Source of the DNA: Escherichia coli
Lineage (GTDB): Bacteria; Pseudomonadota; Gammaproteobacteria; Enterobacterales; Enterobacteriaceae
DNA: 64,000 nt
NCBI RefSeq assembly: GCF_001677475.2
Contig: NZ_CP015229.1
Strand: one strand, 5' to 3'
The notes beneath the pieces are model-generated. The model was not told the DNA's origin and searched no databases. It saw nothing but the letters and a program-made list of their open reading frames with translations. Of this stretch, positions 1,824-55,590 are shown piece by piece; the first letter of the stretch is position 1, and the number at the start of each line of letters is the position of its first letter. The position numbers and the translations under genes are program-made.

Positions 1824-1852
1824 TAAAAAAACCCGCCGAAGCGGGTTTTTTC
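1824..1852 (-). terminator. Intrinsic terminator downstream of rpsI (hairpin CCCGC-CGAA-GCGGG flanked by A/T runs)
   Basis: aaaaaaacccgccgaagcgggtttttt seen directly. Confidence 0.6.
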
Positions 1853-4811: not shown

Positions 4812-6179
4812 ATGAAAAAACAAACCCAGCTGTTGAGTGCATTAGCGTTAAGTGTCGGGTTAACTCTCTCGGCGTCTTTTCAGGCCGTTGCGTCGATTCC
4901 AGGCCAGGTTGCCGATCAGGCCCCTCTCCCCAGTCTGGCCCCAATGCTGGAAAAAGTGCTTCCGGCAGTGGTGAGCGTACGGGTGGAAGGAACGGCCAGT
5001 CAGGGACAGAAAATCCCGGAAGAATTCAAAAAGTTTTTTGGTGATGATTTACCGGATCAACCTGCACAACCCTTCGAAGGTTTAGGCTCCGGTGTCATCA
5101 TCAACGCCAGTAAAGGCTATGTGCTGACTAACAACCATGTGATTAATCAGGCACAGAAAATCAGTATTCAGCTCAATGATGGGCGCGAGTTTGATGCAAA
5201 ACTGATTGGTAGCGATGACCAGAGCGATATCGCCCTGTTGCAAATTCAAAACCCGAGCAAATTAACGCAAATCGCTATTGCCGACTCCGATAAATTGCGC
5301 GTCGGTGATTTTGCCGTGGCGGTCGGTAACCCATTTGGCCTTGGGCAAACCGCCACCTCTGGCATTGTTTCCGCATTAGGCCGCAGTGGGTTGAATCTTG
5401 AAGGTCTGGAAAACTTTATCCAGACAGATGCTTCCATTAACCGCGGTAACTCCGGCGGTGCACTGTTAAACCTTAACGGTGAGTTAATTGGCATCAACAC
5501 GGCAATCCTTGCGCCTGGCGGCGGGAGCGTCGGGATTGGATTTGCCATCCCCAGTAATATGGCGCGAACACTGGCGCAGCAGCTTATCGACTTTGGTGAA
5601 ATCAAACGCGGTCTGTTAGGCATCAAAGGCACCGAGATGAGTGCCGATATCGCCAAAGCCTTCAACCTTGACGTGCAGCGTGGCGCGTTTGTCAGCGAAG
5701 TGTTGCCAGGTTCTGGCTCGGCGAAAGCGGGCGTCAAAGCGGGCGATATTATTACCAGCCTCAACGGCAAACCGCTGAATAGCTTTGCTGAGTTGCGCTC
5801 TCGTATCGCGACCACCGAGCCGGGCACGAAAGTGAAGCTTGGCCTGCTGCGTAACGGCAAACCACTGGAAGTAGAAGTGACGCTCGATACCAGCACCTCT
5901 TCGTCGGCCAGCGCTGAAATGATCACGCCAGCGCTTGAAGGTGCAACGTTGAGCGATGGTCAGCTAAAAGATGGCGGCAAAGGTATTAAGATCGATGAGG
6001 TTGTCAAAGGAAGCCCAGCTGCTCAGGCTGGCTTGCAAAAAGACGATGTGATCATTGGCGTCAACCGCGATCGGGTGAACTCGATTGCTGAAATGCGTAA
6101 AGTGCTGGCGGCAAAACCGGCCATCATCGCCCTGCAAATTGTACGCGGCAATGAAAGCATCTATCTGCTGATGCGTTAA
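4812..6179 (+). CDS. degQ: Periplasmic serine endoprotease DegQ (HtrA family, two PDZ domains)
   Basis: Trimmed to ATG 4812 (MKKQTQLLSALALSVGL signal peptide); trypsin-like motif GNSGGAL. Confidence 0.95.
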   Translation: MKKQTQLLSALALSVGLTLSASFQAVASIPGQVADQAPLPSLAPMLEKVLPAVVSVRVEGTASQGQKIPEEFKKFFGDDLPDQPAQPFEGLGSGVIINASKGYVLTNNHVINQAQKISIQLNDGREFDAKLIGSDDQSDIALLQIQNPSKLTQIAIADSDKLRVGDFAVAVGNPFGLGQTATSGIVSALGRSGLNLEGLENFIQTDASINRGNSGGALLNLNGELIGINTAILAPGGGSVGIGFAIPSNMARTLAQQLIDFGEIKRGLLGIKGTEMSADIAKAFNLDVQRGAFVSEVLPGSGSAKAGVKAGDIITSLNGKPLNSFAELRSRIATTEPGTKVKLGLLRNGKPLEVEVTLDTSTSSSASAEMITPALEGATLSDGQLKDGGKGIKIDEVVKGSPAAQAGLQKDDVIIGVNRDRVNSIAEMRKVLAAKPAIIALQIVRGNESIYLLMR

Positions 6180-7352: not shown

Positions 7353-7383
7353 AAAAAACCGGAGTCTGTGCTCCGGTTTTTTA
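7353..7383. terminator. Bidirectional intrinsic terminator between degS and mdh
   Basis: aaaaaaccggagtctgtgctccggtttttta: perfect hairpin with A-run and T-run. Confidence 0.7.
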
Positions 7384-10198: not shown

Positions 10199-10289
10199 CT
10201 GTTGCCACCGTCACGTTTCGCGGCGAGTTCTGCCGTGCATCGCTAAGTATAGCCATGAAAAAACCGACGCTTTTGGCGTCGGTTTTGAC

Positions 10290-22175: not shown

Positions 22176-23767
<1,592 letters not shown>

Positions 23768-23832
23768 AAGTTATGCGTATTCTCGTATCAGACCAGGCAG
23801 GGTAAACAGACACTTCCCCTGCCTGCATCCGA

Positions 23833-25002
<1,170 letters not shown>

Positions 25003-25180
25003 TTACAAATCTCTGCCTGAGTCCAGAAAGGCTTAATGCATCAGCAGCATTCCTCGCCTGTTTGCAACCGCGTAAGGTCATTCATCTGCATATGTGCTGC
25101 AACAATCTGGCGAGCAGACAAGCACACTCCCATGAGACGCAGCGCGCGTTATTCTACGTGAAAACGGATTAAACGGCAGG

Positions 25181-27121
25181 TTAAACCGAGTATCTTTGTG
25201 AATATTTTTTCACGTTAGTATCAAGTGGCTGTGAGGACGCGAAAAAATCCCCTTGCCCACCTGTAACACCGCGCTGAATCAGGGTCTGCCACTCGCTTCG
25301 CGAACGCACGCCGGTGGCGTAAACCTGGGTGCTGGTCCCGGAGCAGGCTTCCACCAGGCTTTGAACCAGCAGCTGGTTCTCCGTTCGCTTCTCAATGTTT
25401 CTGACCAGCCCCGGATGGAGCTTGAGTAACTCAACATTAAGTTCTTTGATCCAACTGGTGCTAACCAGCGTCAAACCAGCCTGGTTGACGGCTACCCGTA
25501 CCCCTAAAGCATTCACTAAACGAATAACAGGTTGTAAACGACTGATATGTTGACCTACATCGGCCTCTGCAAGTTCAATAATTATGCGTTTTCGTTGTGA
25601 TTTTTCACATTGCATTAACGTATCGCGCAGCCAACGCTGAAAACGCGGGCGAATCAGCGACTCAACGGTAACCTGAATCGCCAGATTTTCCTCCGGCCAG
25701 TAACGCAATAGTGGAATCAGACGGCTGATTTGCAGGCGGTCATACTCTTCCGATAAGCCAAACTGCAAGACCATCGGCATATACTCCGCCGAGCTAACCT
25801 CTTCGTTACCATCGAAGATGCGGCACATGAGTTCGCGATGATGAACCTGACCTTCGCGAGTAACCGCCGGTTTTTGATAAAGGCGCGGGCCGCCGCGACT
25901 GAGCATTTGCTCGATAAGCGTACGCCAGCGAACATTACCGCGTCCTTTTTCAGGCAACGAGTCATCGTAAATAGCCCAGCTATTGCCGCCCTGCAATCCC
26001 GCATTACGCGTGGCAGACTCTGCATGTTCCATTACCTGCTCGGTATCCTGACCACTACGCCAGGCACAGATACCAATGTGGATCATATCGTCGCGATCGA
26101 GCATTTTATTGTTCGGCAAGGTATCGACGGCTTTGATTAACTGACTGGCTATGCTCTCAGCCTCTTTTAACGTCCGGTGGGGCAACAGCGCAGCAAAATC
26201 ACTGCGGTGGTAACGCGCCAGCAGTGCGCCAGGGTAGCGCATCATAAATGTCGACAGCAGATTCGTCAGAGAGAAGAACTGTTCTTCAACCTGGCTGTGC
26301 CCCCAGGTATCACTCAACATATTGAAATCCGGCAGACGAATCATCATCACGATCCCGTGGGTACCTACTTTCTCTTGATCTTCCAGTAACGTTGCTAACT
26401 GATTATCGAAAAAGAGTCGGTTATTGAGGCCGGTTTTCATGTCCTGGGCGGCATAAGAGCGGATCAGCGTATCAAGACGGCTGTGTTGTTCGCGTGCGTT
26501 CTGAATTTCACGAAGCAGCGTATCCAGCGCACTGCTGGTTCTGGGCGGCCATTCATAGATGGTTCCCAACACATTAGAGCCACGCTCACCGTTTAAGATA
26601 CGAGTAGCCCGGGTTTCCAGCAATTCTTGCCCGGCAAGTTGCCGTTGTAACCAGCGTACCGCCAGGAAGAGCATAAGAATGATAAAGCCAATCGCCCCCG
26701 TGAGCGGCGCGGTGGTCATCAACGAATGGAAATAGTTGCCCATCGGATCCTGATAAACCAGACGCAGCGACATCCCCGGATGCTTTATCAACGGAACGCT
26801 CAGTTCGCGAAACAGATCGCTGGTGCCAACCGGACGATAACTACCATTTCTGGCGAGGGTATAAACCTGTTTATCACCATGCAGCAGGTCTACACGAACG
26901 ATATCTGCTGACACCATTAATTCGGTAATTTGTGGCCTTAATGCGCTGAAGTCATTCGACACAAGGTGGGTATCAATCGCCGTCGCCACCGCCTGAACGC
27001 GATGACTAAACTTATACTGAATGGCGTTGTAGAAACTTAGCGAACAGCCCAGCAAAGTCACAAAAATTGTTAACCCGGTGAGCAGCGTAACAAAGGCCGA
27101 AAATTTCGTCGTTAATCTCAT
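25181..27121 (-). CDS. csrD: CsrB/CsrC turnover factor CsrD (degenerate GGDEF-EAL protein)
   Basis: 646-aa ORF with two N-terminal TM segments, recognised as CsrD (YhdA). Confidence 0.93.
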   Translation of the reverse strand: MRLTTKFSAFVTLLTGLTIFVTLLGCSLSFYNAIQYKFSHRVQAVATAIDTHLVSNDFSALRPQITELMVSADIVRVDLLHGDKQVYTLARNGSYRPVGTSDLFRELSVPLIKHPGMSLRLVYQDPMGNYFHSLMTTAPLTGAIGFIILMLFLAVRWLQRQLAGQELLETRATRILNGERGSNVLGTIYEWPPRTSSALDTLLREIQNAREQHSRLDTLIRSYAAQDMKTGLNNRLFFDNQLATLLEDQEKVGTHGIVMMIRLPDFNMLSDTWGHSQVEEQFFSLTNLLSTFMMRYPGALLARYHRSDFAALLPHRTLKEAESIASQLIKAVDTLPNNKMLDRDDMIHIGICAWRSGQDTEQVMEHAESATRNAGLQGGNSWAIYDDSLPEKGRGNVRWRTLIEQMLSRGGPRLYQKPAVTREGQVHHRELMCRIFDGNEEVSSAEYMPMVLQFGLSEEYDRLQISRLIPLLRYWPEENLAIQVTVESLIRPRFQRWLRDTLMQCEKSQRKRIIIELAEADVGQHISRLQPVIRLVNALGVRVAVNQAGLTLVSTSWIKELNVELLKLHPGLVRNIEKRTENQLLVQSLVEACSGTSTQVYATGVRSRSEWQTLIQRGVTGGQGDFFASSQPLDTNVKKYSQRYSV

Positions 27122-31055: not shown

Positions 31056-31103
31056 TTTGTGACGCGCGGTGTTTTCATCGCGCTTAGCAAAGAACGTAAT
31101 CAA

Positions 31104-31136
31104 CGCCGGGCCTGTTAACGCTGCCCGGCGTTTTTA
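31104..31136 (+). terminator. Intrinsic terminator of the accBC operon
   Basis: cgccgggc-ctgttaacgct-gcccggcg followed by ttttta. Confidence 0.7.
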
Positions 31137-43911: not shown

Positions 43912-43936
43912 TTCAGGTTAGCTAAATGCTTGATTA

Positions 43937-43974
43937 AAAAGGCGCTACTCGGCATGGGGAAGCGCCTTTTTTAT
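43937..43974 (+). terminator. Intrinsic terminator after fis
   Basis: aaaaaggcgct...agcgcctttttt hairpin. Confidence 0.7.
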
Positions 43975-50954: not shown

Positions 50955-51384
50955 CTGAACAGAGCGCGGAGTACCGCGCTCTGTTTAACGATACAGTATC
51001 TCACCATAAGATAAAATATTGCTATATTCTGCTGGGTAATTCCCTGCTGATTTAGCATGTTATATCGCGTTATTTCGCTGCTTTCGAAATAACGCATCAA
51101 TTTAATTTTCACACTTCCTACCAGAAATATACTCACGCTAACAATCATTATTCTGCTTAGTAAAAAACGCGTAAATATTTTGCGCCAAAATGTGGCGCAT
51201 GTTTCATTTTCGCACCATTGCGGGGCGCTGTTTTTATTATTTCCTGTCTACACTCAGCTTATTGCGACGCGAAATCGTGCGCAAAAGCTGGCACTACTTT
51301 TGCTTATAAGAGGATGGCCACAGACAGGTAAAAGACGTTTCCCAAATGTCCTATAACGATAATTTTCGCCTCACAGGAAGCATT

Positions 51385-55558: not shown

Positions 55559-55590
55559 CAAAAAGGCCATCCTTTCGGATGGCCTTTCGC
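55559..55590. terminator. rrnD distal terminator (T2-like); also placed to terminate yhdZ
   Basis: aaaaaggccatcc-tttc-ggatggccttt: perfect hairpin with A-run one side and T-rich tract the other. Confidence 0.6.

What the first reader, a model, noticed from the sequence alone, without database searches (positions are those of the whole stretch)
23794..23825. Stable hairpin inside the mreB–mreC intergenic spacer
CAGGCAGGG–N13–CCCTGCCTG lies between the mreB stop (23833) and the mreC start (23767) on the transcribed strand and has no U-tract. It is better suited to partial attenuation or an RNase processing site that could set the MreB:MreCD ratio than to full termination.
Basis: seen in the sequence. 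Interest (0 to 1): 0.25.

Follow-up and report, generated by a model that had tools for sequence, protein, structure and literature searches.

The report
Stem-loop ending the mreB messenger RNA
The hairpin between the E. coli cell-shape genes mreB and mreC is real and conserved, and published RNA-end mapping already places the main end of the mreB message 2 bases past it, so it is an ordinary, known kind of leaky transcript boundary that lets MreB be made in excess of MreC and MreD.

Summary
The window is E. coli. The hairpin exists as described, except that the loop is 14 nt, not 13. It extends to a 16-bp helix that starts at the last base of the mreB stop codon. It folds robustly (pair probabilities at least 0.98; z about -3.5). 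It is single-copy and has no U-tract.

All 23 Enterobacteriaceae spacers examined keep a long hairpin at the same place, with diverged sequence: 88% of cells are paired and 11 of 15 pairs show compensatory changes. In Yersinia, Serratia, Erwinia, Dickeya and Pectobacterium the hairpin at this position has a T4-T7 run, as in a canonical intrinsic terminator.

Published Term-seq (Adams 2021) lists a dominant mreB 3' end at MG1655 3399996, which is window 23785, 2 nt past the helix. The same study reports a weak Rho-dependent region 148 nt further on, inside mreC. Secondary citations of Wachi 2006 say mreB is mostly monocistronic, and mreCD depends on the mreB promoter.

Best reading: this is a leaky transcript-boundary hairpin that fixes and protects the mreB mRNA 3' end. 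How the end is made in E. coli is unresolved: Rho termination plus trimming, weak intrinsic termination, or RNase cleavage plus trimming.

The parts
23833..24876 (-). mreB coding sequence (347 aa). The stop codon TAA is at 23835-23833.
   Evidence: ORF list, RefSeq annotation, Pfam MreB_Mbl on the identical protein.
23827..23833 (-). 5' arm of the lower stem, AUCGGAU. It begins with the last A of the stop codon.
   Evidence: MFE and pair probabilities of 0.83-1.0. Lower-stem pairs are kept in 23 Enterobacteriaceae, 88-100% paired.
23826..23826 (-). Bulged G between the lower and upper stems.
   Evidence: It is G>A in E. coli strain N96 without effect on pairing.
23817..23825 (-). 5' arm of the upper stem, CAGGCAGGG.
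   Evidence: Pair probabilities are at least 0.98.
23803..23816 (-). 14-nt loop, GAAGUGUCUGUUUA. In other Enterobacteriaceae this stretch forms an extra apical stem.
   Evidence: The loop differs completely in Salmonella. Most substitutions seen in sampled E. coli genomes fall here, the rest in the bulge and the loop-closing pair. Apical stems in relatives are shown.
23794..23802 (-). 3' arm of the upper stem, CCCUGCCUG.
23787..23793 (-). 3' arm of the lower stem, GUCUGAU. It sits where relatives carry a U-tract.
   Evidence: Comparison with relatives.
23785..23785 (-). Published dominant 3' end of mreB mRNA (MG1655 3399996, - strand): ...CCCUGCCUGGUCUGAUAC-3'.
   Evidence: Adams et al. 2021, PMC7815308, supplementary file 1. 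Coordinate transfer.
23768..23784 (-). Conserved leader of mreC, GAGAAUACGCAUAACUU (Enterobacterales consensus GUCGAGGAAUACGCA...).
   Evidence: Invariant or nearly invariant columns in A1. Alignment of 54 Enterobacterales.
22664..23767 (-). mreC coding sequence (367 aa). Start codon ATG at 23767-23765.
23560..23700 (-). Stretch in early mreC with C above G (C/G 1.2-1.4). It contains the best-scoring position of a published weak Rho termination region (MG1655 3399848 = window 23637).
   Evidence: Adams 2021 supplementary file 2: Rho score 1.75, p 2.2e-5.

Best explanation
The hairpin is the 3'-terminal stem-loop of the abundant monocistronic mreB mRNA. It is a leaky transcript boundary between mreB and mreCD.

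Shown:
- The helix is thermodynamically robust.
- Its structure, not its sequence, is conserved across Enterobacteriaceae.
- The dominant steady-state mreB 3' end lies 2 nt past its base.

Inferred:
- The helix blocks 3'-to-5' exonucleases, so mreB mRNA ends precisely there and outlasts the mreCD part of the transcript.
- Polymerases that continue through the spacer and early mreC supply the much smaller amounts of MreC and MreD.
- Because the E. coli helix has no U-tract, the end is most likely produced downstream and then trimmed back to the helix. The downstream event would be Rho-dependent termination in the poorly translated start of mreC, and/or endonucleolytic cleavage in the AU-rich leader.
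- In Yersiniaceae, Erwiniaceae and Pectobacteriaceae the hairpin at this position still carries A- and U-tracts and probably acts as a classical leaky intrinsic terminator. The Escherichia-Salmonella-Citrobacter lineage kept the pairing but lost the U-richness.
For: - Structure.
- Conservation and covariation in 23 Enterobacteriaceae: 88% of cells paired against 38-62% when the 3' partners are slid; 11 of 15 pairs changed on both sides; covariation score 0.438 against 0.295 +/- 0.02 in shuffles (0 of 500 reach it). Frequent G-U pairs point to an RNA structure on the sense strand.
- E. coli against Salmonella: the loop is entirely different and the stems are kept with a G-C to A-U swap.
- Within E. 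coli, substitutions in sampled genomes fall in the loop, the bulge or the loop-closing pair.
- Mapped 3' end at window 23785, in two of three growth conditions.
- Weak Rho region in early mreC and a modest C>G stretch there.
- The known class of U-less protective stem-loops at the ends of Rho-dependent transcripts (PMC6061677).
- mreB mostly monocistronic, and mreCD driven by the mreB promoter.
- Legionella has a roughly 1100-nt monocistronic mreB mRNA and an annotated terminator after mreB.
- Relatives with T4-T7 runs after the hairpin.
Against: - No experiment was found that mutates the arms, so causality is inferred.
- The Rho score is low (1.75) and its window is broad (800 nt on each side).
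- mreC is translated, which should limit Rho access.
- The C>G bias is modest.
- The 3' end is also exactly 9 nt after the 9-bp upper stem, which is the geometry of intrinsic termination.
- The Term-seq entry is absent from the LB OD 2.0 list. This may only reflect lower mreB expression.
- The original Northern paper (Wachi 2006) could not be read here.
Confidence: 0.7

Rival explanations
1. The hairpin is a weak intrinsic (Rho-independent) attenuator. The 9-bp upper stem forms in the exit channel and releases a fraction of polymerases 9 nt downstream despite the poor U-tract, perhaps helped by NusA or NusG. Ribosomes terminating at the adjacent stop codon could modulate it.
For: - The 3' end lies 9 nt after the upper stem.
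- Hairpins at this position in other Enterobacterales have canonical U-tracts.
- The helix begins at the stop codon, so a terminating ribosome would cover its 5' side (inference).
- The mreB 3' end itself is not listed as a Rho site.
Against: - Only 3 U in the 9 nt after the stem, and none adjacent to it.
- Tail score 2.27, below the usual cut-off as I recall it.
- Not called by the terminator scan.
- Selection kept the pairing of the former U-tract positions rather than their U content.
Confidence: 0.25
2. The spacer is an endonuclease processing site. RNase E (or G or III) cuts the polycistronic mreBCD RNA just 3' of the helix or in the AU-rich mreC leader. The hairpin then stabilises the upstream mreB half while the mreCD half decays faster.
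For: - U-less hairpin with a 2-nt overhang.
- AU-rich single-stranded leader and early mreC (GAGAAUACGCAUAACUUAUGAAGCCAAUUUUU).
- Adams et al. attribute most non-intrinsic, non-Rho 3' ends to processing.
- RNase E already acts on the mreB 5' UTR (PMC2773258).
Against: No cleavage-site data for this spacer were found. A matching 5' end downstream was not checked. The weak Rho signal offers an alternative source of the precursor.
Confidence: 0.15
3. The helix mainly controls mreC translation, for example by positioning or masking the conserved GAGAAUACGCA leader or by coupling to mreB termination. It would not act on transcript ends.
For: The leader is highly conserved and its SD-like element ends unusually far (about 15 nt) from the AUG. 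The helix abuts this leader.
Against: In the predicted folds the leader and AUG are unpaired and are not sequestered by the helix. The mapped 3' end is not explained by this reading.
Confidence: 0.05
4. The inverted repeat is a chance or DNA-level palindrome (for example a protein-binding site or a repeat element) with no RNA function.
For: None beyond the bare existence of a palindrome.
Against: - Expected about 0.005 by chance in this spacer.
- Single copy per genome, so it is not a REP-type repeat.
- Covariation with many G-U pairs fits only sense-strand RNA.
- It coincides with an RNA 3' end.
- No Rfam family matched.
Confidence: 0.02

Closest known systems
Protective stem-loops at the 3' ends of Rho-dependent E. 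coli transcripts (Dar and Sorek 2018, PMC6061677)
   Same: A stable stem-loop with no U-rich tail. The steady-state 3' end lies immediately downstream of it. There is mild C-over-G enrichment and a Rho signal further downstream.
   Different: This one sits inside an operon, directly before an essential translated gene. The Rho dependence measured nearby is weak (score 1.75), and mreB's own entry in their tables could not be consulted.
Leaky intrinsic terminators (attenuators) between cistrons of one operon, such as the rplL-rpoB attenuator (own knowledge)
   Same: Position between a highly expressed upstream gene and weakly expressed downstream genes, with partial read-through. Hairpins at this position in Yersinia, Serratia, Erwinia and Dickeya have the full A-tract, stem and U-tract anatomy.
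   Different: The E. coli version lacks the defining U-tract.
Intercistronic stabilising hairpins giving differential mRNA decay, such as the malE-malF REP, the pap operon and the Rhodobacter puf operon (own knowledge)
   Same: A stable hairpin after the upstream cistron, with higher abundance of the upstream mRNA segment and protein.
   Different: It is not a REP or other repeated element (single copy). Segmental decay has not been measured for mreBCD.
Terminator at the end of mreB in Legionella pneumophila (PMC4630621)
   Same: A monocistronic mreB mRNA of about 1100 nt ending at an annotated terminator, although mreBCD is a predicted operon.
   Different: A distant species. Its sequence was not compared here.

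Membership tests
Canonical intrinsic (Rho-independent) terminator | GC-rich stem-loop | tested here: met
   9-bp stem with 7 G-C pairs, -20 kcal/mol.
Canonical intrinsic (Rho-independent) terminator | U-rich tract immediately 3' of the stem | tested here: not met
   GUCUGAUAC has 3 U of 9 and none adjacent to the stem. Tail score 2.27. Not called by the scan.
Canonical intrinsic (Rho-independent) terminator | RNA 3' end 7-9 nt after the stem | tested here: met
   The published 3' end at 23785 is 9 nt after the upper stem. This geometry is also compatible with trimming to the longer helix.
Canonical intrinsic (Rho-independent) terminator | Factor-independent release in vitro | not testable with these tools
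   Needs single-round in vitro transcription.
Protective 3' stem-loop of a Rho-dependent transcript (Dar and Sorek class) | Precise steady-state 3' end immediately downstream of a stable stem-loop | tested here: met
   The end lies 2 nt after a 16-bp helix.
Protective 3' stem-loop of a Rho-dependent transcript (Dar and Sorek class) | No U-rich tail and no upstream A-tract | tested here: met
Protective 3' stem-loop of a Rho-dependent transcript (Dar and Sorek class) | Read-through rises when Rho is inhibited | tested here: inconclusive
   The published Rho region peaks 148 nt downstream with a score of only 1.75, p 2.2e-5. The value at the 3' end itself is not available.
Protective 3' stem-loop of a Rho-dependent transcript (Dar and Sorek class) | C-rich, G-poor (rut-like) sequence downstream | tested here: inconclusive
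   C/G is 1.2-1.4 over window 23700-23560, which is a modest bias.
Protective 3' stem-loop of a Rho-dependent transcript (Dar and Sorek class) | The end shifts or the RNA is destabilised in PNPase/RNase II mutants or stem mutants | not testable with these tools
   No such data were found.
REP/BIME or other repeated palindromic element | Many copies per genome | tested here: not met
   One place per genome in 5422-5425 E. coli genomes.
Any curated Rfam RNA family | Match to a covariance model | tested here: not met
   0 matches at E-value up to 10 over 22500-25300.

The most novel reading that the evidence does not exclude
The boundary may be regulated rather than fixed. Because the helix starts at the mreB stop codon, the fraction of polymerases or transcripts that get past it could depend on how closely ribosomes follow the polymerase, or on Rho activity. 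That would make the MreB:MreCD ratio respond to growth state and contribute to the still unexplained feedback on the mreBCD locus (PMC8510551). In addition, the Escherichia-Salmonella-Citrobacter lineage may have switched this site from intrinsic termination to Rho- or nuclease-based end formation while preserving the hairpin.
Probability: 0.08. Interest if true: 0.45.

Novelty: already known. Interest (0 to 1): 0.15.

Why it matters
MreB is needed in far larger amounts than MreC and MreD (own knowledge). Ribosome-profiling estimates, as cited in the papers I read, put MreC at about twice MreD and PBP2-RodA (PMC7793260) and PBP2 at roughly 60-300 molecules per cell (PMC7089770). The balance of MreC and MreD affects elongasome activity. 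A leaky boundary after mreB is a simple way to obtain that imbalance from one promoter.

The practical value is modest. Anyone engineering mreB, for example with deletions, tags or CRISPRi, should keep or deliberately replace this 47-nt helix, because it probably sets mreB mRNA stability and mreCD read-through. The comparative series, from full terminators in Yersinia or Serratia to U-less helices in E. coli or Salmonella, is a tidy natural example of terminator decay with retention of the hairpin.

Tried and rejected
- Rfam scan at permissive threshold: nothing.
- Consensus promoter and terminator scan: no call at the site, and no promoter-like site that could give mreC its own transcript.
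- REP or repeat-element idea: rejected, because the element is single-copy.
- CsrA-site idea (GGA in UCGGAUG and in the loop): rejected by eye, because the GGA motifs are not conserved in Citrobacter FP75 and other relatives.
- Antisense or bidirectional terminator: the + strand tail (CATCCGATTACTC) is also U-poor, and no + strand gene lies nearby.
- My automatic 'best hairpin' and 'best tail' pickers pick inner or spurious hairpins in some species, for example tails at the ATG. I therefore rely on the folds shown and use the counts only qualitatively.
No supplements were held for Dar and Sorek 2018, the 3'-UTR valve paper, the Rend-seq annotation paper or the multi-study 3'-seq preprint. There was no mreB entry in the TERMITe or SMRT-Cappable-seq supplements.
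- mreB 5' UTR: folded in passing. It is not unusually structured (z +0.9).

Full report
**Identity of the locus.** The window is Escherichia coli. A 201-nt stretch around the finding is 100% identical to many complete E. coli genomes and lies under the RefSeq annotations for mreB and mreC. In MG1655, mreC is 3398875-3399978 and mreB is 3400044-3401087, which leaves a 65-nt spacer. Window coordinates equal MG1655 coordinates minus 3,376,211. All the genes here (csrD, mreB, mreC, mreD, yhdE, rng) are on the minus strand.

**The observation.** On the transcribed strand the sequence reads TAA-ucggaug-CAGGCAGGG-gaagugucuguuua-CCCUGCCUG-gucugauacgagaauacgcauaacuu-AUG.
- The arms are at exactly the stated coordinates.
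- The loop is 14 nt, not 13.
- The helix continues below the reported stem. AUCGGAU, which begins with the last base of the stop codon, pairs with GUCUGAU across a single bulged G. This gives 16 bp in total.
- Folding energies are well below those of shuffles: z is -3.4 for 40 nt and -3.6 for 86 nt, and no shuffle folds as well.
- The upper-stem pairs have probability at least 0.98 whether 51, 201 or 351 nt are folded.
- There is no U-tract, and the consensus terminator scan does not call the site.
- Perfect 9-bp hairpins are about ten times more frequent in the window than in its shuffles. The chance expectation for one in this particular spacer is about 0.005.
- The element is single-copy per genome and matches no Rfam family.

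**Conservation.** The identical MreB protein is encoded in Salmonella-type loci (MreC of 350 aa). There the spacer has a completely different loop, but both stems are kept, including a G-C to A-U swap at the innermost pair.

A degenerate-pattern scan of one genome per species, anchored on the MreB C-terminus, returned 120 loci across Enterobacterales, Vibrionaceae, Shewanellaceae and Alteromonadales. All 23 Enterobacteriaceae spacers (60-69 nt) fold into a long imperfect hairpin of -19.5 to -31 kcal/mol. In most of them the hairpin starts within a few bases of the stop codon, and in all it ends roughly 5-25 nt before the mreC AUG, although the stem sequences differ widely.

On a MAFFT alignment (A1), RNAalifold finds compensatory changes in 8 of 11 pairs. 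For a 15-pair structure that includes the lower stem:
- 88% of cells are paired, against 38-62% when the 3' partners are slid by 1-3 columns.
- 11 pairs show changes on both sides.
- The covariation score is 0.438, against 0.295 +/- 0.02 in column shuffles (0 of 500 reach it) and at most 0.188 when slid.
- The many G-U pairs fit an RNA structure on the mreB-sense strand only.

Within E. coli, about half of 5422 genomes are identical over the 68 nt and nearly all others differ at one position. In the genomes I looked at, the substitutions are in the loop, the bulge or the loop-closing pair.

**What relatives show.** In Yersinia, Serratia, Dickeya, Pectobacterium, Acerihabitans, Erwinia and others, the hairpin at this position is preceded by an A-rich run and followed by T4-T7. 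That is a textbook intrinsic terminator, placed directly before the conserved mreC leader GUCGAGGAAUACGCA.

Within Enterobacteriaceae the U-richness fades in steps:
- Siccibacter: CCCCUUUUUGUCUGG.
- Cedecea and some Enterobacter: CCCUUUCUUGUUGG.
- Citrobacter: CCCUUCCGCUCUGA.
- E. coli: CCCUGCCUGGUCUGA.
- Salmonella: UCCUGCCUCUCCGA.

Pairing with the 5' side is maintained throughout. I infer that the ancestral element was a leaky intrinsic terminator, and that in the Escherichia-Salmonella-Citrobacter lineage selection has acted on the helix rather than on the U-tract. The hairpin is not universal: Idiomarina and Pseudidiomarina have spacers of only 2-8 nt.

**Published transcript mapping.**
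- Adams et al. 2021 (PMC7815308) list, among curated dominant Term-seq 3' ends, position 3399996 on the minus strand. It is classified as the primary 3' end of mreB, with the sequence UAAUCGGAUGCAGGCAGGGGAAGUGUCUGUUUACCCUGCCUGGUCUGAUAC as its upstream part (table layout).
- This position is window 23785. It is 9 nt after the upper stem and 2 nt after the full helix.
- The entry occurs twice. From its position in the file, I take these to be the LB OD 0.4 and M63 sheets and not the LB OD 2.0 sheet. That assignment is my inference.
- The same paper's table of Rho termination regions has one whose best-scoring position is 3399848, which is window 23637, inside mreC. The score is weak (1.75, p 2.2e-5).
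- That position lies in the only stretch near here where C exceeds G, with C/G of 1.2-1.4.
- A secondary citation of Wachi et al. 2006 states that mreB is mostly expressed monocistronically (PMC5890156). The original paper is not held. My recollection that it discusses attenuation after mreB is unverified.
- mreCD expression is driven by the mreB promoter (PMC8510551), so the boundary must be leaky.
- In Legionella pneumophila, mreB likewise gives a monocistronic RNA of about 1100 nt ending at an annotated terminator (PMC4630621).

**Mechanism.** The safest statement is that this helix defines and protects the 3' end of the mreB message and separates a highly abundant mreB mRNA from a less abundant mreCD message. 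How the end arises in E. coli is open.
- The anatomy matches the class described by Dar and Sorek 2018. [quoted passage not shown] Those stem-loops protect against PNPase and RNase II, and mild C-over-G enrichment lies downstream. I therefore favour termination or cleavage downstream followed by trimming to the helix.
- The nearby Rho signal is weak, however, and the 9-nt distance from the upper stem equally fits inefficient intrinsic termination.
- RNase E cleavage in the AU-rich leader or early mreC, followed by trimming, is a third possibility. Adams et al. attribute most ends that are neither intrinsic nor Rho-dependent to processing.
- A role in mreC translation is less likely. The conserved leader and the AUG stay unpaired in all folds.

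**Comparison, novelty and verdict.** The feature fails one defining test for a canonical intrinsic terminator, the U-tract. It meets the structural tests for a Rho-class protective stem-loop, with the functional tests inconclusive or untestable here. It works like the intra-operon attenuators and intercistronic stabilising hairpins known from other operons.

The 3' end, the monocistronic transcript and the sequence of the hairpin are already in the literature, so this is not a discovery. What appears to be missing is a mutational test and an assignment of the end-forming mechanism. Interest is low (0.15).

Noticed in passing
window 23768-23786 (- strand); loci L012-L131: The mreC leader GAGAAUACGCAUAACUU is among the most conserved non-coding stretches here (consensus GUCGAGGAAUACGCA in 54 Enterobacterales). 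Its SD-like GAGG/GAGA ends about 15 nt before the AUG, which is unusually far for a Shine-Dalgarno element.
   Followed up: partly
window 23770-23790 (- strand); L120, L100: A second small hairpin, AUGCG-AGAAUA-CGCAU, would display the SD-like GAGAA in its loop. It is perfect in E. coli SCPM-O-B-8794 and Citrobacter youngae CCUG. In the window sequence it has an A.C mismatch (AUACG...CGCAU).
   Followed up: no
window 23560-23700 (- strand), inside mreC: A modest C-over-G stretch in early mreC coincides with the best position (MG1655 3399848 = window 23637) of a weak published Rho termination region. This suggests some Rho-dependent polarity inside mreC.
   Followed up: partly
L066, L069, L101, L096, L045, L049, L050, L110, L065, L107, L089, L091, L099: In Brenneria, Rahnella, Pantoea, Pectobacterium, Budvicia, Edwardsiella and Hafnia the mreB-mreC spacer is expanded to 140-325 nt with several very stable hairpins (down to -129 kcal/mol in total). 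These may be inserted repeat elements.
   Followed up: no
L026, L037, L046, L052, L064, L105, L117, L119, L129: Idiomarina and Pseudidiomarina, and one unclassified gammaproteobacterial MAG (L119), have only 2-8 nt between mreB and mreC and no hairpin. The boundary element is therefore lineage-specific, not universal.
   Followed up: no
window 24877-25145 (- strand), mreB 5' UTR: A published candidate attenuator or riboswitch lies in the mreB leader (PMC2773258). Folded as a whole, the 272-nt leader is not more stable than shuffles (z +0.9). A GCGGA-N8-UCCGC hairpin lies close to the start codon.
   Followed up: partly
window 21802 (- strand), inside yhdE: The same Term-seq table lists an internal 3' end at MG1655 3398013, within yhdE (maf) downstream of mreD, in what I take to be the M63 sheet.
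   Followed up: no
window 1826-1851, 7353-7382, 10260-10286, 31102-31132, 43936-43971, 50958-50985, 55562-55587 and others: About 22 loci in the window carry perfect inverted repeats of 9 bp or more with short loops, roughly ten times the shuffle expectation. Many have the AAAA...stem...TTTT look of intrinsic terminators.
   Followed up: no
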